This document shows positions 469 to 52,407 of a stretch of DNA of 64,000 bases, one piece after another. The notes beneath the pieces are model-generated. The model ran no database searches, was not told the DNA's origin, and saw only the letters and a list, made by a program, of their open reading frames with translations. The translations under genes were made by a program, and so were the position numbers. The stretch lies in contig CAJNYD010000012.1 in assembly GCA_905331295.1 (NCBI GenBank), positions 186,001-250,000 on the forward strand, read 5' to 3'. How positions within the stretch are numbered: the stretch's first letter is position 1; every line of letters starts with the position of its first letter. Origin of the DNA: Rotaria socialis (lineage: Eukaryota).

Positions 469-6299
<5,831 letters not shown>

Positions 6300-11286: not shown

Positions 11287-12081
11287 TAAATAAATTTATA
11301 ATATAGAATATATTCTTCGAGTTAAAATTAGCGCCGATTTACAATATTCGTTTCTATAGTGGAGTAGCGAATATATTAAATATGATCGATATTTAGCCAT
11401 TTGAATAAGCCTAGGTTTTTTTTAGATTATTCTATCGCTATAAATTATCCTCAAGCATAAATACTTTGATCATTGATTTTACTTTTTTTTTAAAAGCTTG
11501 GAGAAATAATATTAAGTGTTTTCAAACTTTTACGAAGCCCGTAAATCAAGTCTCGATATGTTATAGTGCTTCGAAACAATTCAGTGCGAAATTAATTTCT
11601 TATCACGGTAGAGTTTGCTATGAAAATCAAATTAATTTTCTCACGCTGACATGTAATCATTCCCAGGATTTCCTAAAATCCTTGATTCCATGCGAAAAAA
11701 GCTCAATAATCAAGTTTGAACTGTAAGAAAAGACGCCTCTTGAAAAGATTGACTTCTAAAATATAGGCCCTAGAAAAATGCGCATGACATACTCTGAAAG
11801 GCCGTATTGAATGTGTGTTAATTCCATCATCCACTTCTGAAGCGGCGTAATAAAAAGTCAATGGAGACGTTGTCTTATTAGTTTTCAATTACTCAGTCTC
11901 AATCTCAATTGTCGTGTCGAAACAATCCAATCACATTGATTGTATTTATAAAACATACATAAAAAGAAGAAAGGCAAGAGTCTCATAAAGTATACTTATA
12001 AGATTTCTCTTTCAATCCGGCAATCTAATCAAATAAAGTCAGAGAAGGAGAACGTGCAAACGAGAAAGTTACAAATCACAT

Positions 12082-18186: not shown

Positions 18187-18659
18187 GGAAATATCGTTAT
18201 CTAACGGGTAAGTTAATAAATAGAACTAACAAAAACGATAAGAATATTAAAAAAAAGTGACAAGGAAACGTTTGAGCAGGATTTTTCTTTTTATTGAATT
18301 TCTCAAGTAAAAAAACCGCAAGCAGATTATCGTTCATGCTGTTAATGAGCTTGATACGCTTCCGTTTTTTTGTTTGAACAAATGTCTCATCAAAAAATTG
18401 GCTGACAGCATAGAGCAGAAGAGGGATCGGATCGGTTTTGAAGAGACGCCATTATAGTTTTACTCTTATGGTATTTCAATTGCTCTCTCTTTCTTTTTCT
18501 ACATTAGTTCTGGTTTGTTGTTCTTAACAATTATGTATGATTGTCTCCTATTTCTTCTCTTTTTTTTTCCAACGCTTATTATTTGCTCGGCTTATTTTTA
18601 ACCATAGTAATAATTATTACTCAACATAACTAAAGACCATAGTCATAAATCATAACACT

Positions 18660-20521
18660 ATGTCCGCTATGATAGATCATCCGTCGGAGTATTTTCGAAT
18701 ATTTCTTATTATCTTATTTATAATCATTGTTCTTATCGGTTTAATTGGTAATGTTCTTGTTTTATTATCTGTCTTAACAAATCATATCAAAATTCGTCGA
18801 TCATCAACAAATCTTCTTCTTGTTAATATGTCATGTGCTGATTTGATTATTCTTTGTTTTAATATATTCGATATTATGCAGTTTTCCTATGATCGTTCGT
18901 GGCCAGCAGCCTGGTATCTTGGTTTACCATTATGTAAAATTATACGTTTTTCTCAAGTACTTGGTTGCTATGTTAGTGTGCAAACGTTGCTTATTATTAG
19001 CATTGACAGGTAAATCAAAATAAACAAAAAAAAAAAAGAACAGAGGGAATATGTACATCTTTTTTTCTATAGATATATTGCAATAATTCATGCAGTAAAA
19101 CTTTCACATTCTAATCGATGTAAACGTCTTTTATTAATCGTTATCATAATATGGTCGATAGGAATTATAATGGCATCACCTAATTTGTTCTTACTTGTAT
19201 TACATCCAATTCATGATCGTGCCGAATATTATGTTTGTGGCTTATCCGATGACAAAACATATTCATATTTTGTTCTATTTTATAAATATGCGGAATCAAT
19301 ACTTTTCTATTTTATACCCATATTTTTACAAGTAAGCTTTCTATAGAACAGTCAATACTAAATTTTAAGAAACATTCATCTCGAGCGAAAACTTGCTGGA
19401 AAAAGTCTAGGTGTCAATGAAATCGAATGTATATATTCGAGATTAAGAAAAACAGAATATAAAAGTACGTCTGAGAGGTTTTTATTTCATATTACAAATA
19501 CAAAGAAATACTAATAGAGAACTCGGTATAAAGGTTATGACACCAACATAGAATGTATTTAAGATTAAGGTGATTTGTGTCCTTTATAATTTCAACTTGA
19601 ATGTTTTCTGTTATCGAATTCTCTGCGAGTTAAAAAGTTCGTCTTATCGAGTACGAAGAAATCGTTCTTATGACTAGATAAGCTAATAAAACCAAATTAG
19701 ATTATTTCCATACTTGCTTGCAACGGTTAAGCAAGTGTTCTGTCAGATTTGGATGCTTATTTCTTAAAAACAAATTCTCCTTTTTCTTCCATGACAACAC
19801 GTACTTGGCCCACTTTGAATTCAATGCCATTTTTGGCAATAGGACGAGTTAGATATGGATTTGTAAGTTTAACTGACTATGTGATTAGTTGTATATCCAT
19901 TCTTCAGAGTGCCATACCGACGAAATAGAATTACCGCAGACCTAACATGGCTCAACATGTTCTTTTCTTCTATAGGCAATACTTTATTTACTTATTTGTC
20001 GTAAAATATTCTTGGTCGATCGTGCCGTACAAGAATATTGCCGTGCTGATCAAATACAATATTCCATAAGTAATTCTCATCGACAAATTTCAGGAACAAA
20101 AACATCATCATTGCAGCCGGCACATTTAACCGACAATAATATCAGTTTAGTCCCAATGATACCACCACGTTCACAATCTCAGCTAATGCCAGTATCGACT
20201 TCAATGCATAAAATGGGCGATCAAGCACGTAGACGAGCGATTATTATGTTGCTACTGGTTACTACACTTTATTTTATTGCATTTTCACCAGCACAAATCA
20301 ATTTTATCTATACGAAAATAAATCGTTTACATCATTTATATGAAAATCGTCTGTTTTTTATCATGTCAATATTATTAGTTTTATCATCGACAGCTTTTAA
20401 TCCAATATTATTTTATATATTTAGCAAATTTTTTCGACATAAATTTAACATTATTTTACGTAGTCTATTTCCAATATGTCGTGTACGATCACGAAGATCA
20501 AATGAGTTTCCAATGATTTGA
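18660..20521 (+). CDS. Class A (rhodopsin-like) GPCR, neuropeptide-receptor-like; 3 exons (~18660-19009, 19073-19331, 19977-20521)
   Basis: GLIGNVLV (TM1), TNLLLVNMSCADL (TM2), W.LG..LCK, SIDRY across intron 1, ASP (TM4), RRRAIIML...FSP (TM6), STAFNPILF...FR (TM7/H8). Confidence 0.93.
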
Positions 20522-21607: not shown

Positions 21608-21707
21608 NNNNNNNNNNNNNNNNNNNNNNNNNNNNNNNNNNNNNNNNNNNNNNNNNNNNNNNNNNNNNNNNNNNNNNNNNNNNNNNNNNNNNNNNNNNNN
21701 NNNNNNN
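21608..21707. other. Assembly gap (100 N)
   Basis: Run of N preceded by a G tract. 100 N usually marks a gap of unknown size, so distance across it is uncertain. Confidence 0.99.
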
Positions 21708-22718: not shown

Positions 22719-25700
22719 ATGGGCTTCATAAAAAAGCTTTACGAGAAATTTGTCGGCCGAGAAAATTTGAGTGCCCCGTGTACTCTTGTTAGCCATGTTT
22801 TCGATGAAGATGATGAAGCTGAATTGTTCTTTGACTTGGTTTTGGCACGTTTTGAAAATTTTGATCAACAAAATAACGCGGTAGGAAACAAATCGTTCTC
22901 CAGTGATGTTGATTTCATTATTCAATGTACTATGGCAAGTCTGTCATCAACCGAACTGTGTAAAAAATTTCAGAATCGTATCGACTCCTATTTATATATT
23001 TATCGTCGAATCGAAGAATATATCGGAATAGTGAAACAATCAGCTTATTGGATACGAGGCTGGGAAAACGATGTTAAACAATTGAAAGAGAAATTATTGC
23101 AATCATTGTCTCGAGTGTTTATTGAAAGTAAAGGTCTACAACCGAATCTTTGTTTAAAAGACGAACAACAATTACGAAAAATAAATATTGTTCAGTACTT
23201 AATAGCAATGACAGAAATTGGTGCAAAAACAATTGACACATTTTTTGTTTTGATTAAATTATCATTTCAATCATCTATTGTGATCGATAAACATGATCGG
23301 CTACAATGGAAAATTATTATATCAAATATAAAATATTTTAAAATTTCCATACAGGAATTTATTTCTAACTATATTACTTACGAATTGGCATTCCGCGAGT
23401 TTTCACTTGATTTGCCGGGCTTCATTGAACTCATTCGGAAAAATCATCCGTCCAAACATTCTGAAGAATCGCCGTTTCTAATATTCTTACGCCTTTCCAA
23501 AGATTTAAATATCAAAACTGAAGAATTTTTTGATCAATATCGAACATTGTTTGAACGTGGTATTAAGGAAAAGTTTTATTGCTTTTCACACATCGGTGAT
23601 TTATTCACTATCATCGGTCGTCACGATCGCGTCTTTGATGTTTATTTCACAATTTATGCTAACAGTGTGGATCTCGATGATCTATGGACAATGTTCATGT
23701 ATCTAAGCACAAAGAGTGAACTGAATGATATAATTCAAAAACACCTTATTTCCAAACTTAGTATTCGTACAGCAGGTGCACCAATTGATAGTTTTCTACG
23801 TTACACAAAATTTGCAACAGAATGCATGACGAAAAAAATCAAACATGAATATCATCCACGTTTTCTGAGGATATTTGAAAATATATTCGAAGGTTTCATC
23901 GGCCATCAGTTGACTGACGAACGATATTCTTATCGTTTTTCTGAGTCAAATTTAAAAGAATTCTTAAAGATCAGTCTTGAAATGTCAACAAGTCATGATC
24001 TACAGCAACCATCTTGTTTGCTCATCGTTCGACGCTTGATATTTCAAAATAGTACTCGGCAATTGAATACAGCTGATAAAACCAAAGGTTTGTTTGAAAA
24101 ACTAAATGATTTTGATCAAAGTTTATGTGAGAAGAACAATCCCGCTGCTATTATTCAAGACGAATGGTTGCAAGACTATCTTCTACTTATTCCTGAAGAT
24201 TTTTTGCGTTATTTCAACGAAAATGTGTACAATTATTTGTGCAATAATCATTTAAATAATCGTTGGACACTTTATATTTGGAGAAGACTAATATATTTGA
24301 GCATTCTCAAATCAAAAGCTGAGAACACGAATGAAATACTTTTGAAAATGAACGAATGGATGCACATTGTCAAGCATGACAACTACAATATCAATGATAC
24401 TTTGACAATCATTTTGATTATCAATCTATTTGAACTTGTTATTGTCAAATATATAAAATCTGTTTTGTCACTTCCGAAGATCGATATTATCATGAATTTT
24501 ATTGTAAATGCCCGACAAGAACAACTACATCAAATGGATACCAAACAAGTAGATGAATTTATTCAAGGCGCTGAAAAATCAATTCAACAGATCTTACTAC
24601 TACAAGGTAAATTCTATCTCAATTTATAGATACTTATACTTTTCCTGTGATAAATCGCATTTAAATCTAGAAGAGATAAAAATTCATTCTTTGACTAGGT
24701 ACTTCGCAATTGTATTCTTCGTCAAACACTTTCTGTTATAGGTCCTTGCGAAAAATATCGTGATCAATCAAATTCAACAATATTATATTGCTTTATGCAG
24801 TACATGGATTTTAAAACAATCATTACATCCATTGATCCAAACCAATATAAATTTCCTCGTCCTACAGAACAGATTGAATTAATTGTATCACCTATACCAG
24901 AAGATATTTATATCACAGACATTAATATCAAGGAACAATATTTTCAACTATTCATTCAACAAGCGAATGAGTGGCTTCGATGGTTTGATAAATTTCTCTT
25001 AGTATTTTTGCATGTTGTCGAATGGTTGAAGAATTGGAATGTCATTGGAGCTGCTCAATTATTTAATGATATGCGTACAGCGCAAAGTAATTCATCAATC
25101 ACAATGATTCAAATGAAAACAACAGTTGAGAAAGCATTAAAACTACTTCGACCTTTTAATGATCTACAACGACTATGCCATCTACTCAATTGTTTAACAT
25201 CTTTTCAATTAATTGACTCTGGTACACAAGGCAATCAAATTATTTCTGAAAATTATATTCGTGAATTAAAACGATTTCAACCTAACAACTCATTCAAGGT
25301 AGATTCCAAAATGATTGCTAAATGCATAATTCCTATCAATGGTCGTCAAAATGTTCAATGGTGTATTGCTAGTGAGAAACTTGCATGTAATATAGAAATA
25401 AACTATCAAACCACTGACTTGAATGATTCTTCTAAATTTTTATGTCGCAAGGAAAAGGTTTCAATCGATAAATATGTTCTACAAGGAGAATATGAGACAC
25501 AAAGAGCTGGCCAGTTAATGATTCTCGTCAATAATGAAACATTTCCAGCTCCACGTACTATATGGTATCGGGTAATACAAACACCGTTATCAACTTCTCA
25601 TCTATTCCATGGTATATTCAATATGTTTTATCAACAATACTCTAAACAATCAATAAAAACAATTAAGGAGAGTGAATTGAGTAATTTGCTCGATAGAGTA

Positions 25701-28700
25701 TTTACATTTATTGATAACCTCTTGCATGGTACTGTAAGTTTAAAAGATATGGCTGATCTTAAAGCCGTATTTTGTGATAAAAACATTCATGTAAAAGAAG
25801 AAGTAAAGAAGCTCTTTAGTAAACGTTCTTCTGAAGAAGGAACAAAAAGAAAACGATCCACGATTGTTATTCGAACAACGATCGATCCCACTGAAAAAGA
25901 AATTGAGCAAGTTTGTGAATGGCTACAGATCTATCAATATTATAGTCATGTTAATATTATCATAAATTGCATTGAAACATTTGATATACTACCAATCGAT
26001 AATGATGATGAGTTGATCGGTCGACTCAAACGCTTGCGTGATGAAAACTGTTCGCTGAAAGAAATTACGCAAACGTACGAAATTGTAAAACGGCAATTTC
26101 AAAATTTATCGAGTCAACATTTACAATTAATTAAAACAGCACTCGAGTGTTCAAATGCTGTTCTAATGATGAAAAAGTATGATTTATATTCACCTCATGG
26201 ACGTCGTCGATTTCAAGAATTACGAGATAATTTAACAACACAATTTCAATTTCAAGAACGTAATAATATGATTCTGAATTCATGGATTATCGCCTATGCA
26301 TTGTGTGAGCCGTTCGTCCTCAAGGCTAATAATTTCGATGAGTTTCTTAATCGCATTGCTGGCTTATCGAAATTTGAAGAAAACTCTCTCAATCACATTC
26401 AAAGTAAGATAGTTATACATTCAACTAAATGACTAGAATAATGAGCTACTTTTTAAACTAAAATCTGACCCAAGCGAAAGACACGCTTGCGTAAACGCCC
26501 GTTTCAGTTAATATTTTCTGACGCGTAAATAAAATAAATTTTGTTTCTGAGAATCTTTATTTTTCAATCTATTAGTTGTCAATGAGAATGTACAAATTGT
26601 TAATATGTGGCTATCAGCAGAAGAAACAACAGTGTTAGATAATGCTCTTTTAACAATGGAGCATTTGTACAAAACCGGTAAAGTTCAGATACGTCTTAGA
26701 CATTTAATGAATGAACAATCTTATTTTGAAATCATCTATTCTATTGATAAATTGGGAACTGAACAGGTGCGAAGAGCTGATTCACAGGATGATGGCTATG
26801 AACAATATAATGATGAAGAACATAATCAACAAAAGTCTAAAACACTAAAATTTACATTGACAATGAGTGACATCGATGATCATAAACGCCAATTAACATT
26901 CTGTAATGTTGATTTACAAGAAAATATGATTTATAGAAAAATATTATTACAAGAACAATTAAAATTATTGAAAATTGTCGAAAAAATTTATTCTATACTT
27001 GTAAAATTAGAAATGACAGGTCATCCAGATTTTCAACTCAGAGAAGAAGACTATGAAATACATGACCGAACTGGTAAGAAATTTTAACAAAGAAAATAAA
27101 TATCGTTTTTGTTTTTTAATTAATAATTAGGCGAAATCGATACGATTCTTACGGATCTAAGAAAAGATCATCGCTTACGAGCGGATCGATTGAAACGTGT
27201 CGTAAAAACTCGCACAGAGAATTTAGAATCAATCTATCGCGCTTTAGAAACTGCTTATGATATATGGATAACAAATTTGGAAAGATTTAGACAGGACAGT
27301 CGTTTATTAAATTTATTCTCAAATCGTCAAATAATGATCCTTATTATTTTATTAACAACATCGACAACGCAAAATCAAATCAAATGTCATTTTCTGGAGA
27401 AATTATCACTATCAAAAGATATCATCAATCATAAGGGCAAGGAACAAAATCTGACCATTCAGTGTTTGATGCATTACTTACGCTCACTGAAAATACGTGA
27501 TTGTGAATTATCTGAAGCTCATGTATCACGTCTGCATGAAACATACAAAATTGCGTCAAATTCTAATGTTGAAATGAGTCTAAAAAAATTGTCCGAATTT
27601 CTGCGAGATTTGTTGAAAAATGGAAGAGAACTATTCAGAAAAAATCCATCAATCAATGAAAATCAACAGTATCTTGTAACACCAAATGCAATGAAACATG
27701 CAACGGATAAAATACCACTCGAGCATGATCTTGATATGGAAACTTGTTGTGTTCTATTGAGTCTATTCAATGATCGACTACCATCTGTCTATCAAATATT
27801 ATGGTGTTCGATTGCTACAGAAGATGATATACACTTGTTCTTCTTACGAGTACGAACATTTCATTGCATGGTATTTGCTGTGATGGAGATCGATAAAATG
27901 CATCATCGTCTTCGAGAATTATTATTAAACGAACAGGATACATTGACGCGACAAGAACAACCTCATGGGACCGTCTATTATTTTTCAAGAGAATTAACAA
28001 CAAATCGGAGAGGCCTAAGACCGTTTCATATCTTACTCAAACATCGAGATCCGAATCAAATTTATACGCAAATAGTTCGATTATTTGGAGAACACAATTA
28101 CACACAACCACAGATTCAAATCATATATGGAAAAGCTGGAATAGGTGAGTTCCGCTTTAGATTTGCGCAGGATTAAGCAAAAGTAGTATAGAAGATGTTC
28201 AGATTAGAGTTAGAATGATGTTCGTTGTGCCATAATTTTATGTTTGACTATCGTTGGAAATTAGAAAAATATTTTGTAATAACGAAATCTGAAATGTTAC
28301 GATAGTCAGCTAGAAAGTCCATCAGAAAGGACAGAATTAGGATCTTAAGTCAGTACCAGAGATGTCCATCGTGGGCGAGACTCTGCCACGCCGCTGCCAC
28401 GTTGGTTATCGATAAAAATCTGTCACTGACGCTGAGATGGCGAGAACGCTATTGCGCTGCCATGAGCACCTCTGGTTTATAAGGCAAGGTATAGAGTGCG
28501 AAAATGTCTTACAGTACAGCAATGTAGTTTATTTCATTCACTTATTTCTCATATCATTTTTTTTCTATTAGGAAAAACTCATTGCATTAATACAAAATAT
28601 AAAGATCAAGATACATCGTGTTTTAGTATTAATGATACACTAAATTTATCATCGTTGATTAGCTCATTCCTATTGTTTGATTCAAGAGGTCGAAACGAAA

Positions 28701-31700
28701 ATCCATCGGTTTCTTTCAATATATCAATTCATGCACCATTTGAAGATCTAAATCGTACTTTCTTGTCGCTTTTTGTTTGTGGATCATTGACTGATGCGAG
28801 TACTGGTCTCACATTTTCTCTACCAGAAAACAAACAATGGAAATTTGTTATTGAAATTCCTCATACAGACAAATATCATATGACAATCAAAGAAAATTTC
28901 GATAAAATTTTACCTTTGTTATCAATTATATCACCATATACATTAGAAGAAGTCACAGACGAAAATTATCAATTATTTATTAACCGAGAAGAAGAACTTG
29001 TTGCACGATTCTTAAAAGCCTATGAAAATCAAACAATCGATCGTCTCATGACAATAAGTCCAACTGGCAAAGACCAACCTGTAAAATTCGAAAAATTGAC
29101 AAATCGCGATGAATGTCGTCAGCAAATATACAACTGTATGACAAAATATGCTCGCGAAATACCAAGAAATAAAATTTCAGAACTCTCTTTCACTAAATTT
29201 TTATATCGTCGTATTCGATTTTTTAAAGGTCATTATTATCGACTTAACATAACTTCTCAGCATCTCGGTTCAACTGTTATGAAACAAATGATTAACGAAG
29301 CTAAGTTTCTTGCTCATATTGATTTTCGACATAATAATTATCCTCGTATTTATCTTGTTTTCGATCCCTATTTTGCCTTACATCTATTACACGATGATTG
29401 GAATAATGTTTCAAAAGACTTGAAGCAACTCTTCAACAACAAAAATCCATCACTGACAGACGATTTTAAGAACAAAGATTATTTTGCTAAATGTTTATCT
29501 TGGCTCATCGATATAAAGTATGATGATTTCATAAGAATAATGAATGAAACAAAATTTATTTTGACCGAAAATTTTGCTTATAAACTTTTTCATGTTCACG
29601 AACGAAAATTAACTAGACTACCATTAATTATCGAAGGTGATACTGGTGTTGGTAAAACATTTCTTCTTAAATTCTATTCATTATTATTGAATTCGAATGT
29701 AATCAATGGTCCAATACATGCCAATATTGCTTCCATAGATGACCATGCTGTTTCAGATGATGAAAATAGTGATTCAACAGATGATAATGATGTTCCAACA
29801 CATGCCAACATCGCTCCACACATTTTAGAACGCACTAGTCTGTGGTTATTGACAACTATCATAAATAATATTTTAAAAAGTGAACCGAATTTATTGAATG
29901 AATTTCTAAAACGAGTAAAACCAAAATTAATGGGACTTGATGACGAGCAAGTGGATCAACCAGAAGTGCCAAACCTCTACCATCAGTTTGTGCCACAATT
30001 TCAAGATACTGATGATGATGATGATAAAAATTTATCGAATGATATTCTCATCCCTCATGAACTACAGCGGGTTGTTCCAACTCCGATGGCACCAGAAGTT
30101 CGGCCAGCAGTACAAGTGATTGATCTTCCACTATTAGAAAAAATAAAAAGTTCATTAGGAAAGTTTGAATACAACAATGATAGTCTACTATATATTTGGA
30201 AAACGATTATGATTATTTCGAGTGAAAATGCAATGAATACGACTCAACAACTTATCATTGCATTGCACAAGCATGTTACAAGTCAATTAACTAGTTATCC
30301 ATTAGCTGAAGCCAGTTTTCAACTTCAAACTTTACTTACCGATTCCCACTCTCCAACTGTACAAAAGTCGATCGAGATTTTTAATGAATATCTAATGCAC
30401 ACACAAACTAAGCCATTATTTTATCGTCTATTATTACATCCAGGCGTAACTGAAGAACAACTCGAAAATTTTATGTCACCCATTCGTCAGTTAGCCCGAG
30501 AACTATCTCATGTCGAATTCGTTGTTTTTTTCGACGAAGTTAATACGGCATCATGTCTTGGTCTGTTCAAAGAGATGTTCATGGATCGAACATTACACGG
30601 ACACAGTCTACCGGAAAATATCTTCTTCACGGCTGCTATTAATCCGTCTATTAAATTAAGTGACGATACTGTTGTTCATCGACAAAATTATCTGGTGCAT
30701 CAATTGCCACAAGCATTGGAAAACTTAAAAGTTTCTTATGGAGCCTTAGAGCCGGCATCATTAAAAGAGTATATTGACAAAAAAATCGCCAAATTTCGTA
30801 TTAATTCTTTAAATAATAGTCAGAAAGTGATGCCATTAGAAGAATATGCCCGAGAAATGCTTGCTGAATCTATTCTTAATGCACAGCATTTCTGTGAAAA
30901 ATATCTCGGTAAATTATTCATTTTGTATTTGAAAATATTCCTAGCAATTTTTATCTGTACTAGGACAAAATTCTGTGTCCCAACGTGAAATTCAAAGATG
31001 CTTTAATTTAATTGAATTCTTTTGGCATATGCGATTTGATGATGAGATCGAAAATGACGGTAACTTGTATCAACCAAATCCTATCCGATGTATTGCATTA
31101 TCATTGGCTTTGATTTATTATTTTCGACTACCAACAGAAGAAGATAATGCACAACGAAATGATAAACAAACGCCAACACGTGAACAACTTGCTAAATTAC
31201 TTTCTCAAACTATACCAGATTTTGTTGATGTCATTCAAAATGAATTGGATAGATTTGTAAATAGTGACAATTTTGTAATTCCACATGCTGTTGCTATCAA
31301 TCAGGCTGTAAGTATTGAATTATATACTATTTTCATACTACTAAAATCTTTCTACTTTGAAGGTTCGCGAACATATATTCGCTATTGTTGTTAGTATCGT
31401 TACTCGAACACCATTGTGTATAATCGGTGCGCCAGGTTAGTAAAACTGTTGTGTATCAGCTGTAACTATGACGCTAAATATATATTTCATTCAAGGTCAA
31501 TCAAAAACATTATCATTTCAAATTGTTTTACAAAATTTGCAAGGTTCACAATTATCGATAAAACCATTTTGTAAACGTTTACCAGCTATTGATCCATTCT
31601 TTTGTCTCGGCTCGAAATATAGTCGCTCTGAAGATATTGCTTATATATTTGAACGAGCTCTTAAACGTGAGCAACAATACGAACAAAATCGCATGGATAC

Positions 31701-34700
31701 ACGTTGTGTAAGTGCTTTGTTTTGCAATTGGAGTAAATTAATATCTTTAAATTGTTTTTTTTTTCTTCTTCGTAGGTTGTTTTCTTAGACGAAGCGTCAT
31801 TACCCGATGAAAAGAAAATGGTACTTAAAGTTTTACATCCCTATTTAGATGAATGTAAAGTTGCATTTGTGGCTATTGCAAATAAATCATTTGATGCTGC
31901 TAATGCAAATAGAATGATTTGTGTTTATCGTTCATTGCCATCTAGAGATGATCAAAATATTTTAGCTTATGGTTGTCTTGGTCTAAAAATGAAAACTAGT
32001 GGCCAACAAGCAGTAGACAATCGTCTTGAAGCAATAATCAATGGTCTTTGTCAAGGATATCGTCGTATATTAGATACGCCGAGTGTTCCTCACATTTATC
32101 ATGATCGTGATTTTATTTATATGCTGCGAGAATTAAGATTCGAATTAACAACAACAACAACAGATGATCAAGAGACACGCGTCACTGGAATAACGCCACT
32201 AAGTCTTCTACGAGCATTAGAAGATAATTTCAATGGAGTTAAAAGAGATGAATTTGAAAAATTAGTTGAAATATTTTTTCAAGCTGTTCAAGAGCAATGT
32301 CCTGACTTTCGACTACCACCAAATCGTCGTAATGTACCGACTATTCTACGTGAATCAATGAAACTTGATTCACAACATCGCCGTCTTTATGGTCGTTATA
32401 AATTAATCATTGATGAATCCGAAGATGAAAGTGCTGTTCGTTTAATATCGCAAAATGGAATAGTAGATCTGGATCCTAATCGAACAACTGTTTTTCGAAT
32501 GTCAGATTTTGCCGATGATATTCATAATGAACTACGTAATGTTGAAATATTATCAACAATAAAATTATGTATGGAAACAGGTAAAACAATATTGATGGTC
32601 AATACAGGACGAATTCATGGTTCCCTGTATGATGTTTTTAATCAAAATTTTTCAATAATGGCTACTGGAGATATGAGAAAGATCTTTTCAAAAGTCGCCA
32701 TAGGTCCTAAAACAATTGATGTTGTTGTTCATGAAGATTTTCAATGTATTGTACATGTCAAACGAAGTGAATTCGCGACGATTCCAGCACCATTTCTAAG
32801 TCGTTTTCAAAAATATTCCTTGAGTGTCAACGATTTCTATCGAATTCAATTCGAACAACTTTCGATTAATGAACAGACAATTATGAAAAATGTAGAAGAA
32901 AAATTACAGATATTCATTCAACATTTTGGACGACAATATTTTTATGGATTAAATGAGAATACATTATACTCTTGTTTATTATCACTTATTAAAAAAAAAG
33001 AAAATGATCAAAGTTATTTTCTTAATACTTACCAACATTATTCACAATTAACCATTAGATCAAAACATTTTATTGAACAAAATCCAAGTGATATTCAATT
33101 GTGTGTGTTACGTTCGGTAATATCAAAATTGATTCAACTTGTTTCACCCGAATCAATTATTTTGAAATTACCAACTTTTGAAGATAAAATGGCACGATGG
33201 TTATGCACAAATTATTTTCATCAACAAGAGCATTTTCATATTGAGAATTTTATTCAACAATTAATATCAAATCCATCTCTGGGCCTTCAAAATGACGATT
33301 TATTAACCACAATGAATACAAATGTAAATACATTAAATGATATTGGTATTATAAGAAAAGTAATGATATTTACACGAACATCATCTTATATCGTTGGTCT
33401 CAATGAACAATCGAACTATGAACTATTTGGTGGTTTAGATGATAATGAATATTGTGACAAAATTGAAAATATTGATATACTAAATTTGGTCAGTTTTTCC
33501 TATAGACTGGCCAGGTTCACCATGAAAACACTAGTTTTCCCTTCGTGTGCACAATCCCTGTGGGACTAAAACAAGGGGAAAGCGGCGGACTTGAAGTAGA
33601 AAAGTAGTTGTGCAACTTTTATGTAACTTCAAGTAAATTTGAAGTCGAAAAATTCTTCGAAGTTTACCGCTGGAAGTAGCTCAAAGTTACTTCAAGTCCA
33701 AAAGCTCGGCGTTTCCCCTTTGGGTTAAAATATAAAACTGCTTTTCTGGAACCCGTCTACCACAGTCAGTGAGTCTTTGCACATTTTCTATTACGATCTG
33801 TGGTGACCTATGGAGCTTCTCTGACATGATCTGTGGGGCTCAAATGTCTACTCTATATACTTTAACACTCCTTTTAGTTTGTGTCTCACAAAAGATACGA
33901 CTACCAGTTGTCGAGTTAAGTCATATCAATAGTCTCCCCCCCACCCCACACACACCCTTCCACTCTTACTCTAATACATCTATAACAAATATATATCATT
34001 TAGGCTGTCATCGAAAATTCGATGGAACTCGAAGAAAAATTTCAAGTCTTTGAAAAACATGAAACGAAAAATGTTTTAATCGTTATTATCAATGCACGAA
34101 TCATTCAACAACGTTTACACATTCCATACGTACGACAATTAATTGATAAAACAGAATATTCGTGTAATGCACTCGATAGAAAACAAGATAAATATTTTCT
34201 TATGCTGGTACATTCGCCACCACAAGAACAATATCATCAGTCATCTTTTCCCTCCATTTTCTTGCACAGTTGGGACTTTTATTTCTTCGATAGTTGTGCA
34301 CCAGGTAGTGCATTTCATCTCCAAAAGATGTTACAAATTGTATCATCCTCTTTCGATCAACAACAAGAATCATTCGATAATGCTTTATGTGATTTAAATA
34401 TATTATTCGATGATTGCTTGTGGGACTTTTGTTCACGAATTCAAATAGGTTTACAAGAGTTACCACAAGATATGTTTAAGAATAGATTCGCTTTTGAATT
34501 CTACAAATCGCAAACAAGTACATTACGACGTGTACAATGTTTAAAACAGATTCTTCAACAATCACGACAATTACAAAATCACATTGTAACCATTTATCAT
34601 GATCATTCATCGAATAAAAAAGAATCCTCAAAAAAGATTTACAATTCAATTTATCAAATTTCTAAAGATATTGTTTGTGGCAAACGATTCGATGGTCTAG

Positions 34701-37700
34701 TCGAATCTATTCAATCGGAAACTCGGATGTCATTTACAAACTTTGTTTCAAATGTATTTAAATTTATCGTTAACGATTATGGTTTGGAAACTTTATCAAC
34801 ATTATCAAATATGCTAAATGGATATGGTTCAATGTTAGAATTAATCGACTATTCATCGTTTGCAATAGATGAGAATCAAGATAAACTTTCTCCAATACAA
34901 CAAGGAATATTTCAACTCATTACACATTATACTTGTATTCCACAAACACCACTCTATTATTTATTTCATCAACGAATCAAGACCTGTGCTGAAAATATCA
35001 ATTTAAAGCAAATTCTCAAACAAACCAAGCAAAAAGGTTCGCATGAATTTGTATCTTATAAGAATTCTCCGAAGTATTAAGGCAGGACATTTGTATAGAT
35101 TGCTCAAAGTCACATTCCTACTTAAAATTTCATAGAAATATTTCCTCTCTTCTATTTAGGGAAAGATGATGTTCCACGCCAACATTATTATTCCGTTCCA
35201 CCAATTACCACAGCTGATAACAATTGTGATGATGGCGATGATGAAAACGAACAAACTGAATATACATTCGAACAATTTCGATATGAATTAATGAAATCAA
35301 TTTTAAATGATAAAATTTTAACTGATATCATTAATGAAAACATTCTTAATTCTTATTCAAATGATCTTGTTCGAACATTTTGCACCATTGTCGAGAAAAA
35401 TTTCGATGATAATTTTATCCTATGCCAAAAAACAGTCGAATTTGTTTCACGTTGGTTATTACTCGTCGATGATAATGATCAACAATCTCTATCAGAGTGT
35501 TCAAATAGACATATTTGGCTTCTCGCTCATGCTTATACATCATTTGAATATGATCAAAATGATCTTTTTTCTCTATATTCAGCTTGTCGAATTATGGATA
35601 GACTCGATTCAACCCAATCATTTTATGATCGTCTATTGCACGATAATCATATAACAACACGTTCCGAAGTACGTGAAACATTATTTCGATTTATGTTTGA
35701 TTATCTATGGAAAAATCTTTGTGAATTTTGTTCAAAAAATAATACAAACGATGAATGGATTCATATTTATACATTTATTTCGAAATATTATCCATCAGAT
35801 AAAGTTTTACAACGTATACAACTTATTGAAATCAAAGAACAAATTGAATTTATGAATTTAGCATATCTTATTCTAATCAATGATACAACACCTGAACCGA
35901 AAAATCTTATATCTCGTCTATTGAATGATATACATCTTGTTCATATCAATAATAATAATAATATATTTAGAAATCAAAGCAAATCTGTCTATCTGAAATT
36001 ATTGGTCACTATTATTGATTATATTCAATCATATTTAGAAAATAGAAATGCTCAAAATTCAACATTAATGATCGATTTACAACAATGGATAGTTTCCATG
36101 TTAAAATCATCTACAGAATCATGTAAAGAAGAAATTGGAAATCTTTTTATAGGCTTAAATAAATCAAGTTATCGTTTATCATTACCTATGAAACAACTTT
36201 TATTCGATAAATTAGCTAATTTATATTTAGAATCTGTACGACAAAATAGACCAACAACCGATGCTTGGGATCGTCTTATAACACTTTTACCATTGGTTAT
36301 CGAATGTCTAGAAGATGAAAATGTTTTCAATGGATACCAATTGCCTTATCATCCATCGATTATAACTGATGATAATAATCAACGACAACCATTAATCGAT
36401 TTATTCTTTTTCTATCTTCAACGATATTTTCACGATGAAACAATTAAATGTAGTTTTGTTAATAAAATCATACGACCAAACTTACCAAATACAAAATTTA
36501 AATATCCAAAATTAGCGACAGAAATTTTCAAGAAATTAAAAGATTATTTTCTAGTACGATTAACTGCTTTACTTCTATGTCAAACAGATGTATCTCCTGA
36601 TGATCAGCGAATAATCAGTCGAATTACAACGGCAATTATTACTGAATATTTGTTGATTGATCGAACAGCGATTCAACTTACTCAGCATCTTCAAATATTT
36701 CTCTCAACTATTATATCAAAACGATCGTGGAGTTATCTCTTCATTTTATTAAAGTCGGATCATATACAATGTTTGAATAGTCAATGGGCAAATACTCTTT
36801 GTAGTCTATTAGAAATGACAAAGACAACAGAAAATAACAAATATATTCAATTATGTCATAAAATACAGTTCACGTTATCGTCAAATAATGCATCCTCTAT
36901 ATTTCCTAAATTGCATCAAGCATATGAACAGTTGAAAGACATTGTACGTGAATGTGTCACGGAAAATGTCGTTGAAGGACGATGGAAGAAGCTATCGGAT
37001 TGGGTTCAATTACAACAAAACATGAATCCTCCTGTCCTGGATTTGAAAGAAATCAAAATCATGTTATTATTAAATATTTATTATGATTATTATTGCAGTA
37101 ACCAGTTGGAGTCTCTTAATACGCTCATAGTATTCATTGAAAGCACATTGGAACCATTACCAGAAGAATTACAAGTATTTCGTGTTATGTTGCAACCTGA
37201 ACAATTTATGATTGGATACCCGAGAAGAAATGGGAATGTAGAAAATAATTTTCTAAACAGTTTATTTAAAGTTGATTGTCAAGATGAAGACGAATTATGT
37301 ATTCGCCATTCGCTTGTGAATCTCATTGCTATGATTCTAATGGGTGGAAAACAAAGTTTCCTTTGGACATCTACATTCAATCCTTTGAAACTACAGAATA
37401 CATTTGGTAAGTATTCATTTGATGAAATTTTTCTATTGACTGCGGTGTTGACTCTTGCAGTCGACAAATTCTTTCGAAACAAGAAAATAATTTTGAGATC
37501 CAACCAACTCTACACATGTCGATAATCAAAGAAAATAATTTTATTTATTTTCTACATTAGGGTTTGGATCAACAGCACATCAAATCATTCAAAGTAACGG
37601 TGTACATTATGATTGTGGTTGTATTATCACACAAAACGGAGATTTAATGCAATTCGAACGAGCACATGCGAGTGCACTCAATGTGCCAGCTGTTTATGTT

Positions 37701-40700
37701 GCATATTTTTCAACATTTGGTGCTTTAGTAAGTTATTTGTTCATCATAAGCGTATCATCGTTTTCTTAATATTATCATATAGGCTTGGCATTTATTATTA
37801 TTTAGTGAATCTGTTCAAAATCTTCATGGTCCTATATTAGCACGACATGCTATTGCTGATAACACCGCTGAAGGTCGTCTTGCAGGCAATAACGATCGAA
37901 CGAAAGTGTGTCATTTTATTCGTGCTCGATTATTGTCGACGTTCAGTTTCTTGTCAGTACGTTCGAATCAAGATGATGCATGCATTCTTTTGAATCGTTG
38001 CTTTGAACAAATGGCTCTGTTAACTATTAACCATCAACAAGCAGAAAATTCTTGGATTAAACCCGTTTTTAACACGTTAAACGATGAATTGAAAGCTGAA
38101 GAAGAATATCAAAATCATGTATTCTATTTTGTACATGGAAAATTAGCAGAATATAAAGCATACATTAATCATTTGAATTTACAATCACAAATACAAACAA
38201 ATTTACAAAATTTTATTACACAAATGCCAATTACCATTCAATTTCTACATTTTAAAACTGAATTGCACAATCCTATTCATTCTGCGCTACCACTTAAAAT
38301 CTTACGACATGTTCTTGATTCTATGGATTTTCTTAAGATTACTAGATGGATCTATGATCTTAGTCAATTCTATATTCTTCTACATCAAACATACACTCAA
38401 TTAATTGAACAAAATGAATTTCATACAATAACGTTAGAAGAATTGTATAATCGAGGTGAAAAACATTTCAACCAACCAAATAATTTCGAATATTATCATA
38501 GAAACAATAATTATTCATCAATTATTGATAAAGGAATTCAAAGTGTCAATGCCTATCACAGCTTTACTGATGGTCTCATTCGACCGGGTGCTTGTGATCA
38601 AATGCAACGTTTCACCATAATTACACGGGACACACCCATACACTATCTAGTTACAACAGCAAATTATGATGAAGGAGATATTGTTATGCGCATACTCAGG
38701 TATTTCTACTTAGAATCTATTCATTCTATATGACACAATTGTAATTCCATGGGCCATGATAACGAAAAAATCGGATCCCTTTACATACTGTACTTTTTCA
38801 CTTGACTATAATCGTATCTAATAAGCAGTATCACTCCTTGACTAGCTGATTTAAAATATGAGTTGCCCAAAGCATTCAACAAGAAAGATCAATATCTTTA
38901 ATTCACAGTAGACAATATTCTATGACAGAAATCTGTACATCGTTGCTCTACATATATCAACTTTTAGTGATGCGAGCTATCCTTTTTTTGATCCTACCTG
39001 AGATAAACTATTGTTTTTTCCATGATTAAGCTCGAACTCTAGTATCGACTACGGTCTTTTTTACCTCGTATGAAAATCGATCTCTCAATTCTTGTTCTTC
39101 TTTTGATTTCGTAGCTGAAAAGAAAAGTCAATGAACTTCAAGAAAAAGATCATGTATTTCCTAGACTTTTATTAGACTTCGTTTTATGTTGCGTATTTTA
39201 GTGTTCTAATCGACTATCACAATAGTCTATTGAATTCGCTCGAAAAAGAAACGAATGAAAATGACAACAATATGTTTGGTACGTTAAAAAGTTTAGCTAA
39301 TAAATTAACTTCAAAAGAAGTTTCAATTCTTCAAATTATACATGATAATACTGGCGTAATTACATTGACCGACAATGATTGCCTATGGATCGAACAGTTG
39401 TCTTGTGCTACTCTTATCAATGACAACGATGAATACTTTCAAAAAGCTGATACACAAATTAATTTTAATTTTGTCTATCTTCAATCGTATATTATTCGAA
39501 CATATCTTTTATTATGTCGTATTAATTATCGGCATATCATTCAAAATTATCGATGTCATATTAAACGAACACAAATCAGCACCGATGGCGAACTATTAGA
39601 TCTTGACGAAAAGTATTCGATTCAAATGAATCGTGAACAATTAGAAACCGATTGGAATCATTTGAAAGAAATATATTTAGATAAATTATATCATGGTCAT
39701 AATCTACTACGACAAATAGCTATTTTATTGAAAAATAATCAAGACGATTTGTCTCAAGTAAATCTTTATGAATTTATCCAATCATTAGGAGACGATAATC
39801 AGTTGTTCAAACAAACAAAACAATATGAAATTAAAGATTTTCAATTATGTTATATTGATCATGTTCGACAATTATATGCTAATTCAATTAGTGGTTTTCA
39901 ACATTTATTTACTGATATATCTCAATTGCTTCGAACTTCAATTGATTATCAACTTGATGAAGAACTCAGTCAAAACTTAACAGCAACAATAATTAGCATT
40001 GATGATAATAAAGATATTGAGAAAATAAAATCAACAATACAAACAATAACTGATCTATTAACGGATTTGAGATCAGTTGAACATTTTCTACTGCGTCAAT
40101 CGAACCATTCATTAACAAACACGTGTGAAATTTTAGAGATTCAAAATTCTATTCTTGATTTAATACCACATGAAATAAAATGTGAAAATTATGTTGCTGT
40201 TAGCATTCATTTGATTCGCATGCGAACAATTCTTCAAGAAAGAATTGTCAATATCGAAGAGAAGCAAAGTAAACAATGGAATGAAAACTTTGACGTTCAA
40301 TCCAATGACCAACAGCCGGAACAAGAAAATTGTTTTCTTAATTTTCTCAATGAACCATCAACATCGGATACAACACCGAAAAATAACACTGGATCAGATG
40401 ATGATTATGATGATATATGGAGAGGAATTCCGAGTAGTATACCTAATGAACTGATAAAAGATAATTTACTTGGCAAACAAGATTTTCCTCAACAACGTCG
40501 AAATTCAACTATTCAACAAACAACAATCGAAGAATATTTAGAATATTCATCTCTATTTGAATTAAATCTTAAATTTGTTCCGTTAACATTATCAACTTTA
40601 TTCGATCAAATTCATAAACAATTTGAGCAAGCTCAAACCCAAACTGTGGCCTTGAACAAAGCACAAAAATTCGTTGTCACATATACAGACGGAAAGTCAC

Positions 40701-42647
40701 GCGGATCTTTGTGGAGGACTGAAAATTTATTTGAAAAACTCCGTAATTTGTTCGAGAAAGAGAAATTCGATATGAATACATATACTGTTATTGATAAAAA
40801 TGAAATTTGTGTCGATTTCACGAATATAAATGCTCGATTACCGCATGAAATATCTCTCGAATATTTTATTATTGAAAAAACTCTGTTATTTTCAATTCAA
40901 TTTAATTATCAGAAAAAATTATTCGACTATTCCGCTACGTCTAAAAGTAATATATCTACAATAATCGATCGTTTTATCCATGATAATGACATCAAACTCT
41001 TATCAAACAATAACTACCTCTGTTTCTTCGATGAGCATGGGAAAACTATCGAAAATGGAACCATCGCTGATCTAATTAATCAATCAGATCATCCTGACAA
41101 GAAAAAAATTTCGATAACAGTCAACGAAGAAGATAATAAAACGAGCATGCTGTGCGAAATCACTATACGATCGAAACAAAGTAATAAGTTTTTTTTAATC
41201 TTGAACTATACTAATATTCATTGATTTAGATAATGAACAAATCAGTTTATTTGATCCAAACACGCAATGGAAACAGATTGATCAATGGTTGAAACATTTC
41301 AATCAATTCATCGATGCTCCTATAAACGACTATGCTTATCTTCATAAAGAGCTAAAAACAATCATCGATGAAAATCAGTCGATTAGTTTTATCATTGGTG
41401 AACCAACAAAATCAATAATCATCGATGGAGTTAATCGAGGTGCGACAACTCAAGTGACATTCTCCTATGAAACCAATTGTGTATCATTACGTGTACTAAA
41501 GTCGATGAGAATTTGTTATATATTAAATAATGAACGTCTTCTAAGAGAATTGTGTCTTATTGATATATCTCCAAATGATTGTGTTCTTGTATTAGGAGAA
41601 GTCAACGAAAAAGTTTTATCACAGAATGATATTCAACAGCCTATTAGTAATTATTTCCTTAGTGAAGATCAACCAATTCATTTTCGAATATCAATCGCTG
41701 TTCAAATATTGAAATATGATGATGAACAGCCTATACAAATTCTTCTGTCAAATAGAAGTGCAACTATGGAACATGTCTTTCAATTGGCAAAGGCTTCAAT
41801 TGATATCTACAAATATTTAGCTTCGAATTATACAAAGAAGATCGTCGATTTTAGTGAAAAACTATCAAATTTGAGGGATACAAAATTTATTCTTGTCAAA
41901 GAACATGAAACATGTCTCGTAGCAATTGAAAAATCAAAAATAAGTCAATTAATTGATGTCGACGATGAGGCCAACGAATCTTATTATCAACGATTTACTA
42001 TATTTGCTACGATCGGCGATATTTATAGAGAAAATAAAATAGATATCGATCATCAACATCTTCTATGTTCTGAAGATTTTGTTCCATCGATACAAACCAA
42101 GGTACTTTCATTTTCATCCGTCTCACCAATTCGATTTACGTTGATTGATGGAAATTTACCAGTAACAGTAGTTGTTCTAAATAATGAAAATCAAAAATCA
42201 ATCACTTTTAATTGCTCAATGACGATCACGGTGAAGCGTTTGTCATTCATTGCTTGTCAATTGTTCGGTCTTAACAGCAATTATTATCGATTGAAACAAT
42301 CAGATTATGATCTCGATGATGATACTGTTTCTTTAGAAGATATTGATTCCACGATGACTCAAATCGAATTACAGTTAATTTCAATAGCATCCATCAACAG
42401 TTCGATCAAATATGGCAATCAAACAATTGTCTTGCCCTGTTCTTGTGATACATCAACAGCAACAATCATTGATGAAACATTGCAGAAGCTGTATCTTCCA
42501 CAAGAAAGTCATCATATGTATGAATTAACTGCATTGGTTGACGATGGGATCCCTATAGAAGAGGTTATGTCTATTGAGGATATCTATGCATTATTTCCTT
42601 CTCGTCCGACAATGATACCGTTCGAATTAACAAAAAAAATTGACTAG
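22719..42647 (+). CDS. Giant RNF213/mysterin-like multi-AAA+ ATPase, ~5,833 aa, 15 exons
   Basis: Exons read by eye: 22719-24606, 24742-26403, 26576-27073, 27131-28144, 28572-30908, 30964-31307, 31363-31435, 31496-31707, 31776-33488, 34004-35036, 35160-37406, 37561-37727, 37783-38699, 39202-41180, 41230-42647. All introns are GT-AG and in frame; total 17,502 nt. RNF213-type motifs appear in order: RLPSVYQILWC, IYGKAGIGKT, PLIIEGDTGVGKT...VVFFDEVNT...FTAAINP...YLVHQLP...VSQREIQRC, PLCIIGAPGQSKTLS...VVFLDEASL...LKVLHPYLD...VAFVAIANKSFDAANANR, RDFIYML, IKLCMETGKTILMVN...SLYDVFNQNF...VHEDFQCIV...PFLSRFQK. An upstream exon is possible (acceptor-like site at 22687). Confidence 0.92.
28356..28475. 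mobile_element. Short GC-rich MITE-like element in intron 4 of the RNF213-like gene
   Basis: Ends ccagagatgtccat ... atgagcacctctgg are imperfect inverted repeats; no clear TSD. Confidence 0.5.
33502..33760. mobile_element. Fold-back MITE-like element in intron 9 of the RNF213-like gene
   Basis: Internal inverted pairs aaggggaaa/tttcccctt and ggacttgaagta/tacttcaagtcc; loosely inverted ends tagactgg...ccgtcta. Confidence 0.55.
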
Positions 42648-49009: not shown

Positions 49010-49280
49010 NNNNNNNNNNNNNNNNNNNNNNNNNNNNNNNNNNNNNNNNNNNNNNNNNNNNNNNNNNNNNNNNNNNNNNNNNNNNNNNNNNNNNNNNNNN
49101 NNNNNNNNNNNNNNNNNNNNNNNNNNNNNNNNNNNNNNNNNNNNNNNNNNNNNNNNNNNNNNNNNNNNNNNNNNNNNNNNNNNNNNNNNNNNNNNNNNNN
49201 NNNNNNNNNNNNNNNNNNNNNNNNNNNNNNNNNNNNNNNNNNNNNNNNNNNNNNNNNNNNNNNNNNNNNNNNNNNNNNNN
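49010..49280. other. Assembly gap (271 N)
   Basis: Run of N flanked by C-rich and G-rich tracts. Confidence 0.99.
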
Positions 49281-51775: not shown

Positions 51776-52407
51776 AAGGTACTTGTTGTTGAAGTGCTTG
51801 TTGTAGAACTGGTGGTGCTGGTACTGGTACTAGTCGTCGAGGTACTTGTTGTCGAAGTGCTTGTTGTAGAACTGGTAGTGCTGGTACTGGTACTAGTCGT
51901 CGAAGTACTTGTTGTTGGTGTCGATGTCGATGTTGTTAATGTTGTTGTTGTAGAACTTATTGTTGATGTGGTTGATGATGTTGTGCCAACTGATGTTACT
52001 TCACTTGTTTGTGGCGCTCCGGTTGAACTGCATTGACATGTGCAAGAAGCATCGCAAGTGATCGTATTCTTTGCGTCACGCCGGTAACGTTCTCGAAGTT
52101 CCTCAAACGAGTTTTTTATCGGTGAAATTTCTATTATTTAGTGTGAACATTTTTTAGAAAAAGCAGGTCGTGTAATGTAAAACATACTCTCAGTGGTCGG
52201 AAATGCATTAACAAGATCCCAACTGGCAATAATTAGAAACCACAATAGGTATTGTCGAGTACCCTATTAATCAAAACAATCGTTACAAGAGTAGACCTTT
52301 TATTCTAACTACTTATAACTCAAATTGGGAAGAGAAAGCAACTGAGTATTTACATTTGTCGTTGTGTTAGCTGCATCCACATAACCACTGTGGCTATGTA
52401 CATTCAT
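51736..52407 (-). CDS. Small secreted Ser/Thr-rich (mucin-like) protein, ~174 aa, 3 exons; apparently truncated at a repeat junction
   Basis: Exons 52407-52354, 52263-52188, 52130-51736 (GT-AG, in frame): MNVHSHSGYVDAANTTTN-GTRQYLLWFLIIASWDLVNAFPTTE-KISPIKNSFEELRERYRRDAKNTITCDASCTCQCSS..., then a long T/S tract, ending LLFTFETLDFSHV*. The Val-rich + strand ORF 51767-52036 is its antisense shadow. Confidence 0.7.
51778..51917. repeat. 63-bp tandem repeat (~2.2 copies) encoding the T/S tract
   Basis: Unit ggtacttgttgt(t/c)gaagtgcttgttgtagaactggt(g/a)gtgctggtactggtactagtcgtcga. Confidence 0.9.

What the first reader, a model, noticed from the sequence alone, without database searches (positions are those of the whole stretch)
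37340..37800. RZ finger replaced by a compact HYDCGC motif on its own 167-nt exon
Seen after splicing: SFLWTSTFNPLKLQNTF|GFGSTAHQIIQSNGVHYDCGCIITQNGDLMQFERAHASALNVPAVYVAYFSTFGAL|AWHLLL. By recall, the flanks match RNF213's 'F.P..M...FLP' before and 'LPPVVF.LIRLLTHLALLL' after the RZ finger (Y.CPNGH....GECG.PM...C..C...IGG), but only His-Tyr-Asp-Cys-Gly-Cys lies between them. Known: the RZ finger carries the catalytic cysteine for RING-independent ubiquitin transfer. Inference: a minimal Cys-based E3 active site of a different type, or a relic.
Basis: partly seen in the sequence, partly recalled or inferred. Interest (0 to 1): 0.78.

Follow-up and report, generated by a model that had tools for sequence, protein, structure and literature searches.

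The report
Zinc-free cysteine loop in RNF213 relatives
In a rotifer's giant relative of the human immune enzyme RNF213, and in a deep branch of such proteins that also includes sponges, amoebae and algae, the catalytic zinc finger is replaced by a short loop with a near-invariant aspartate-cysteine pair, which is likely a different, zinc-free site for attaching ubiquitin.

Summary
The window carries a bdelloid rotifer RNF213-like gene of about 20 kb. HYDCGC lies on a GT-AG-bounded 167-nt exon. It sits in a loop of about 36 residues that occupies the RZ-finger slot of the E3 shell (profile match 97%; predicted fold versus human RNF213 Z 19.1). It is not a relic. Among 67 bdelloid homologues, 46 carry the motif (45 HYDCGC, 1 HYDSGC). 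Of 35 aligned non-bdelloid proteins (sponges, amoebozoans, a stramenopile, a jakobid, Picozoa; median identity about 18%), 28 keep Cys directly after an Asp. The His and second Cys are not conserved outside bdelloids. No set of zinc ligands remains, and the loop shows no detectable homology to RZ. An ATPase-core tree separates these proteins from zinc-finger RNF213s (100/99). The E2-docking fold is kept; its aromatic contact patch is not. Best reading, untested (0.5): a zinc-free catalytic cysteine for ubiquitin transfer. Main rival (0.27): a structural loop in a finger-less scaffold. I found no paper describing this branch.

The parts
22719..42647 (+). Multi-exon RNF213-like giant AAA+ gene (about 5,700 aa by collinearity; start codon inferred, stop at 42645-42647)
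   Evidence: tblastn collinear over 12 HSPs with 5692-aa Adineta vaga P0052; 82-97% identity to Rotaria magnacalcarata P0048; ends
28129..28579 (+). First Walker A motif, split by an intron
   Evidence: unsplit GKAGIGKT in bdelloid homologues
29636..29659 (+). Second Walker A motif (GDTGVGKT)
   Evidence: only weak AAA_22/AAA_5 Pfam hits
31776..33566 (+). C-terminal part of the AAA core
   Evidence: phmmer to human and mouse RNF213 PDB chains, E 8e-20 to 5e-13
37061..37406 (+). E3-shell helices upstream of the RZ slot (3' end of the upstream exon)
   Evidence: HHalign to RZ-clade profile 97.3%; predicted fold vs 9jwg
37407..37560 (+). Intron, 154 nt, GT-AG, phase 1
37561..37727 (+). 167-nt exon: most of the loop in the RZ slot plus the start of the next shell helix
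   Evidence: predicted secondary structure
37605..37622 (+). HYDCGC; family-wide core Asp (37611-37613) + Cys (37614-37616), candidate nucleophile; second Cys (37620-37622) invariant only in bdelloids
37728..37782 (+). Intron, 55 nt, GT-AG, phase 0
37783..38699 (+). E3 shell/core exon downstream of the slot; holds the Glu (38098-38100) conserved in both the DC and RZ branches
39202..40235 (+). Hinge and C-terminal domain (the fold that docks the E2 in RNF213); end approximate
   Evidence: HHalign DC vs RZ branches 99.2%, E 1.1e-19; coordinates
41229..42647 (+). C-terminal extension absent from mammalian RNF213, possibly ubiquitin-like (beta-grasp) repeats; a lead only
   Evidence: Pfam PI3K_rbd E 0.007 and TUG-UBL1 E 0.1, both below cut-off; Atlas hits 0.77-0.81, below its 0.9 bar

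Best explanation
The loop replaces the RZ zinc finger in a deep paralogous branch of RNF213-like giant ATPases, and its conserved Asp-Cys pair is likely a zinc-free catalytic site that would take ubiquitin from an E2 enzyme and pass it to a substrate. Shown: the RNF213 architecture (ATPase core, E3 shell, hinge, C-terminal domain), the position in the RZ slot, the absence of RING and RZ zinc ligands, and the extreme conservation of Asp-Cys. Predicted: a compact ordered loop packed on the shell. Inferred from mammalian RNF213: an E2~ubiquitin docks on the C-terminal domain with its active cysteine facing this slot, the loop Cys forms a thioester, the invariant Asp positions or activates it in place of the RZ histidine, and ATP binding in the AAA core gates the step. 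A role in cell-autonomous defence is inference by analogy only.
For: (1) Slot: HHalign 97.3%, E 2.5e-11, both flanks aligned. The AlphaFold2 model of an 85%-identical homologue (pLDDT 92.9, pTM 0.93) matches human RNF213 4369-4695 at Z 19.1, rmsd 3.2 A over 237 residues; next hit Z 6.5. In mouse RNF213 the E2 cysteine faces this slot (PMC12075652 section 10). (2) Conservation: Asp in 31 of 31 and Cys in 28 of 31 non-bdelloid proteins after four Cys-less Sycon paralogues were set aside (28 of 35 with them), at median identity 18%. Site-rate ranks 1 and 4 of 296. Another shell Cys column is only 20 of 31 and takes V/I/F/M. (3) Among the 31 and the bdelloids the Cys is replaced four times, by Ser three times (P0005, P0077, P0080) and Leu once (P0089), each time with another Cys 1-2 residues on. 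The mouse C4462S mutant keeps autoubiquitination (PMC12075652 section 11). (4) No other Cys/His column is conserved enough to complete a metal site. (5) The RZ nucleophile is itself preceded by Asp/Glu in 10 of 18 and followed by Gly in 16 of 18 RZ fingers (alignment). (6) The C-terminal E2-docking fold is kept (99.2%). Two members are fused to a USP deubiquitinase domain (P0106 E 2e-40; P0112). No RING was found by pattern in 45 DC-side proteins or by Pfam in 11.
Against: (1) No activity data. (3) No conserved histidine base: His in 9 of 31, Lys in 11, Arg in 4. (4) The aromatic E2-contact patch (mouse F5093, W5097, Y5106) is not conserved in the 30 non-bdelloid DC proteins, although the Trp also varies among non-vertebrate RZ proteins. 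(5) No register of the motif on the RZ finger beats a column-shuffled null (fractions 0.49-0.91), so catalysis cannot be carried over by homology; two aligners gave different registers. (6) Four Sycon paralogues lost the Cys at that position, and 5 further proteins on the DC side of the tree have E3-core sequence but no recognised loop. (7) Human C4516S failed to ubiquitylate pathogens in cells (PMC11549300 passages), which weakens the Ser argument.
Confidence: 0.5

Rival explanations
1. Structural plug: this branch lost the finger, and the Asp-Cys loop caps and packs the shell helices. The protein acts as an ATP-driven scaffold, or as an E3 only through a RING-type partner or direct E2-to-substrate transfer.
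For: Loop predicted rigid, with a short helical turn on YDCG. E2 patch not conserved. No His base. Unchecked earlier notes describe small RING-like partner genes beside other RNF213 relatives.
Against: Packing cysteines normally drift to Ala/Val/Thr at 18% identity (own knowledge); here a neighbouring shell Cys does so (20 of 31), while this Cys is replaced only by Ser or Leu with another Cys 1-2 residues on, outside the four Cys-less Sycon paralogues. No RING was found among 20 other window ORFs scanned (not all ORFs and no short exons).
Confidence: 0.27
2. The Cys binds a metal or is a redox or acylation site; in bdelloids H-x-x-C-x-C could be part of a zinc site.
For: HYDCGC in 45 of 46 bdelloid proteins that carry the motif. 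Cys-Cys in 13 of 31 non-bdelloids. HHalign lays the motif on the second zinc knuckle of RZ.
Against: Only one Cys is conserved family-wide, and no other Cys/His column completes a site. The knuckle register is not above chance.
Confidence: 0.1
3. The Cys is catalytic but for other chemistry: transfer of a ubiquitin-like protein, or an isopeptidase or acyl-transfer reaction.
For: Same conservation data. Divergent E2 patch. Possible beta-grasp tail (weak).
Against: The scaffold's only known chemistry is ubiquitin transfer; there is no positive evidence for another modifier.
Confidence: 0.1
4. A decayed relic of the RZ finger without function.
For: It resembles the D/E-C-G of the RZ nucleophile. 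Stygiella P0123 has a Cys-His segment ahead of the motif that looks like a first knuckle.
Against: These are among the slowest-evolving sites of the domain across several eukaryotic supergroups.
Confidence: 0.03

Closest known systems
Mammalian RNF213 / mysterin (PDB 9jwg, 7oik, 6tax, 8s24, 9g08)
   Same: AAA core (E 8e-20), two Walker A motifs, E3-shell fold (Z 19.1-20.3), hinge and C-terminal domain, a conserved Cys in the same slot
   Different: No RING and no RZ zinc ligands or Cys/His dyad; short loop predicted ordered; aromatic E2 patch not conserved; long extension after the C-terminal domain; separate branch in the AAA tree (100/99)
RZ finger (Pfam PF20173; RNF213 and ZNFX1)
   Same: Same slot; an acidic residue before the Cys and often Gly after it
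   Different: About 36 residues against about 70; lacks the equivalents of C4505, H4509, C4525, C4528 and H4537; no register above chance; no Pfam RZ hit in 38 of 38 stretches
Other transthiolating E3s: HECT, RBR (Rcat), RCR/MYCBP2, bacterial NEL (features recalled, except the MYCBP2 Cys/His remark)
   Same: A single conserved Cys proposed as ubiquitin acceptor
   Different: The site is a short loop on an RNF213 shell; no sequence or fold match to these families was listed, which does not exclude a weak one

Membership tests
RNF213-like giant AAA+/E3 family | Dynein-like AAA core with two Walker A motifs | tested here: met
   Walker motifs in homologues
RNF213-like giant AAA+/E3 family | E3 shell/core fold | tested here: met
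   predicted models of two homologues vs 9jwg: Z 20.3 and Z 19.1, rmsd 3.2 A; HHalign 97.3%
RNF213-like giant AAA+/E3 family | Hinge and C-terminal E2-docking fold | tested here: met
   HHalign 99.2%, E 1.1e-19, 44 vs 15 sequences
RNF213-like giant AAA+/E3 family | Aromatic/acidic E2-contact residues (mouse F5093, W5097, Y5106, E5108) | tested here: inconclusive
   not conserved in the DC branch, but also variable in non-vertebrate RZ proteins; mapping is by profile alignment through a fish protein
Vertebrate-type RNF213 (orthologue) | RING domain | tested here: not met
   no Pfam RING in 15 gene ORFs; no RING pattern in 48 bdelloid homologues or 45 DC-side proteins
RZ finger (PF20173) | Four zinc ligands C-x3-H ... 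C-x2-C | tested here: not met
   no such conserved columns; no Pfam hit in 38 stretches
RZ finger (PF20173) | Catalytic Cys homologous to C4516 | tested here: inconclusive
   MAFFT puts the Cys on the C4516 equivalent, HHalign on the C4528 equivalent; no register beats the null
RZ finger (PF20173) | General-base His (H4537) | tested here: not met
   no GG-x-x-H segment; the nearby His is in 9 of 31
Transthiolating E3 ligase (function) | E3~ubiquitin thioester on the Cys; activity lost in the Cys mutant | not testable with these tools
   needs biochemistry
HECT / RBR Rcat / RCR catalytic domains | Family fold or profile match | tested here: inconclusive
   none listed in Pfam or fold searches; the loop was not folded or searched alone

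The most novel reading that the evidence does not exclude
A pan-eukaryotic sister branch of RNF213 (bdelloids, sponges, amoebozoans, stramenopiles, jakobids, Picozoa) uses a zinc-free Asp-Cys loop as its ubiquitin-accepting active site: a new class of transthiolating E3 catalytic centre, and evidence that the RNF213 shell is a socket for exchangeable catalytic plug-ins.
Probability: 0.45. Interest if true: 0.88.

Novelty: new variant of a known kind. Interest (0 to 1): 0.73.

Why it matters
Few kinds of cysteine-based E3 active site are known, and the RZ site has resisted structure determination because it is mobile (PMC12075652 section 10). A naturally ordered, zinc-free Asp-Cys site on the same scaffold would add a catalytic class that current Pfam models miss. 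It could also make the E2-to-E3 handover and its ATP gating visible. Even if the loop is structural, it marks a deep, apparently undescribed sister branch of an immune enzyme, with many paralogues in bdelloids and sponges.

Tried and rejected
No genome is held for the window. No RNA holder was listed, and the one run offered laid 0 contigs; neither says anything about expression. Sequence searches of the E3 region against the PDB gave no RNF213 hit: single exons, a 17-sequence profile, a 38-sequence profile. Pfam gave nothing relevant for the gene ORFs or the 38 stretches. The Atlas gave no usable hit for the loop region. The first fold (17 bdelloid rows) left the loop below pLDDT 50; only the deeper alignment resolved it. 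The wide fold search listed nothing at Z 8 or more and did not list RNF213 (best Z 6.6, dimeric dUTPase, taken as a common helical arrangement). Foldseek for the second model ranked RNF213 first but only at E 0.04. I first read the motif as the RZ catalytic D/E-C-G and dropped that as a homology claim after the shuffle test. I first took the second Cys as the invariant one (bdelloids only) and dropped that. The search of the 1.84-billion-protein library never ran (queue full on 10 tries), so the family's breadth rests on one word-based search. No complex prediction was run, because no eukaryotic E2 or ubiquitin sequence was available from the tools. Whether bdelloids also have a zinc-finger RNF213 was not tested. 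The paper that defined the RZ finger was not retrieved.
Full report
Observation. The splice model is correct: GT-AG introns of 154 nt (37407-37560) and 55 nt (37728-37782) bound a 167-nt exon, and the three exons give 1122 codons without a stop. HYDCGC is at 37605-37622. The exon is phase 1-0 and also encodes most of the next helix, so it is neither a cassette nor a module boundary. About 36 residues separate the two flanks. No RNA evidence was obtained for this locus.

The gene. It spans about 22.7-42.6 kb on the + strand. It is collinear with a 5692-aa Adineta vaga protein and 82-97% identical to a Rotaria magnacalcarata protein, so the window is bdelloid rotifer DNA. The AAA part hits RNF213 structures at E 8e-20, and both Walker A motifs are present.

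Position. I built a profile from 45 proteins with this loop and one from 12 RZ-bearing RNF213s found. HHalign aligned both flanks, with probability 97.3% and E 2.5e-11. A first AlphaFold2 model (P0008, 17 bdelloid rows, pLDDT 63, loop under 50) matched the human E3 module at Z 20.3. A second model used 38 diverse rows, with a stretch of P0037 as target (85% identical to the window over 270 aa). It reached pLDDT 92.9 and pTM 0.93, with 96 over the motif. It matched human RNF213 4369-4695 at Z 19.1, rmsd 3.2 A over 237 residues, the next hit being Z 6.5. That range contains the RZ finger (ligands C4505, H4509, C4525, C4528; nucleophile C4516; base H4537; PMC11549300, passages). The loop therefore occupies the RZ slot, and it is predicted to be compact and ordered.

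Conservation. Of 67 bdelloid homologues, 46 contain the motif: 45 HYDCGC and 1 HYDSGC. Many are near-duplicates. Those of the other 21 that I looked at are fragments or gene models lacking this exon; I did not check each. A search with the AAA core listed 120 of 124 hits, 89 of them non-bdelloid. In a tree of the AAA core, which does not include the loop, 51 of the 89 fall with the bdelloids and 38 with zinc-finger proteins. On a reduced set of 47 rows that split has support 100/99 (P0123 is a long branch). Of the 51, 35 align across the slot, 5 have E3-core sequence but no recognised loop (P0075, P0091, P0092, P0113, P0116), and 11 have no E3 match, most being too short. Four of the 35 are Sycon paralogues without the Cys; I set them aside before the column count. 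In the remaining 31, Asp is 31 of 31, Cys 28 of 31, the His two before Asp 9 of 31 and the second Cys 11 of 31. The four keep the Asp, one of them with an unstable alignment. Median identity among 30 non-bdelloid stretches is 18%. Asp134 and Cys135 rank 1 and 4 of 296 sites for slowness; the second Cys ranks 57. Named sources are Oscarella pearsei, O. lobularis, Sycon ciliatum, Endostelium zonatum, Mastigamoeba balamuthi, Pinguiococcus pyrenoidosus, Stygiella incarcerata and a Picozoa genome; the rest are unnamed. The conserved unit is therefore Asp-Cys, and it is ancient or widely transferred.

Is it a shrunken RZ? MAFFT put the Cys on the RZ nucleophile, and HHalign put it on the last zinc ligand. 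An ungapped profile scan along 18 RZ fingers found no register above column-shuffled controls (fractions 0.64, 0.91 and 0.49 for three windows). Homology to RZ is thus not shown. What remains is a chemical likeness: an acid precedes the RZ nucleophile in 10 of 18 fingers and Gly follows it in 16 of 18. No further Cys or His column is conserved enough for a metal site.

Mechanism. In mouse RNF213 the E2 docks on the C-terminal domain, its active Cys faces the RZ slot, and RZ supplies the nucleophile; the Cys-to-Ser mutant keeps autoubiquitination (PMC12075652, sections 10 and 11). This branch keeps the C-terminal fold (99.2%) and shows no RING. The four replacements of the Cys outside the Sycon group are Ser three times and Leu once, each with another Cys 1-2 residues on. 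Two members carry a fused USP domain. I infer a zinc-free transthiolation site, probability 0.5. Against it: the loop is predicted rigid where RZ is mobile; no His base is conserved; the aromatic E2 patch is not conserved in this branch, though the Trp also varies among non-vertebrate RZ proteins; human C4516S is inactive in cells; and I could not see the model's coordinates, so the Cys may be buried. The structural-plug reading gets 0.27, metal or redox 0.10, other chemistry 0.10, relic 0.03.

What is known. Paper searches: RNF213 + bdelloid, 0; RNF213-like + invertebrate, 0; RNF213 + AAA + eukaryotes + lineage-specific expansion, 0; RNF213 + rotifer, 1 unrelated review; RNF213 + Dictyostelium, 6; three broader searches. 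No listing described this branch; beyond the three papers below I saw listings and abstract openings only. I read passages of bioRxiv 10.1101/2025.10.14.682297 and PMC11549300, and passages plus sections 10 and 11 of PMC12075652. I opened no supplements; their alignments, and the paper that defined RZ (not retrieved), could show finger-less homologues. Subscription journals are not covered. Unchecked notes of this scan report an RBR-like finger in the same slot in protists. I did not verify them, but my own set shows varied zinc modules in the slot on the RZ side.

Verdict. Real, correctly placed, strongly conserved, and broader than reported: a sister branch of RNF213 defined by an Asp-Cys loop in the RZ slot. 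It is a member of the RNF213-like family, not of the RZ-finger family. New variant of a known kind; a new class of E3 active site if the Cys proves catalytic. Interest 0.73.

Noticed in passing
window 41229-42647: A tail of about 470 aa after the C-terminal domain, with weak beta-grasp (ubiquitin-like, Ras-association) signals in Pfam and the Atlas, all below their bars. Most members of the branch have long C-terminal extensions.
   Followed up: partly
P0106 residues 3189-3537; P0112 near 4883-5135: USP deubiquitinase domain plus SAM fused behind the RNF213-like body. P0112 shows Cys-box and His-box motifs; a Cys box was not found by pattern in P0106.
   Followed up: partly
P0123 (Stygiella) near residue 3790-3803: A Tyr-x-Cys...His segment directly ahead of the Asp-Cys motif resembles the first RZ knuckle, and the protein branches deepest on the DC side (long branch): a possible intermediate.
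   Followed up: no
P0117, P0118, P0122, P0124, P0132, P0133, P0135, P0138: RZ-side proteins whose slot holds altered zinc modules, several apparently without the catalytic-Cys loop.
   Followed up: no
P0096-P0099 (Sycon ciliatum): Paralogues that keep the Asp but lost the adjacent Cys; possible pseudo-enzymes.
   Followed up: partly
AAA tree: The bdelloid group's nearest rows are unnamed P0083 and P0093 (97/95), not the sponge proteins, and the sponge proteins fall in several places: old paralogy with loss, or gene transfer. Not tested.
   Followed up: no
P0108, P0046, P0113, P0085: Variable extra domains on members of the branch: glycoside hydrolase 31, fibronectin/Ig, VWA + WWE, SH3.
   Followed up: no
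window 4798-5148 (-), 8756-11295 (-), 18630-20518 (+), 63492-63998 (-): Ordinary neighbours: protein kinase, TPR protein, rhodopsin-family receptor and ion-transport exons.
   Followed up: no
window 21608-21707, 49010-49280, 54689; 51777-51915: Assembly gaps (runs of N), which explain the multi-frame ORFs near 49 kb; a 63-nt tandem repeat.
   Followed up: no
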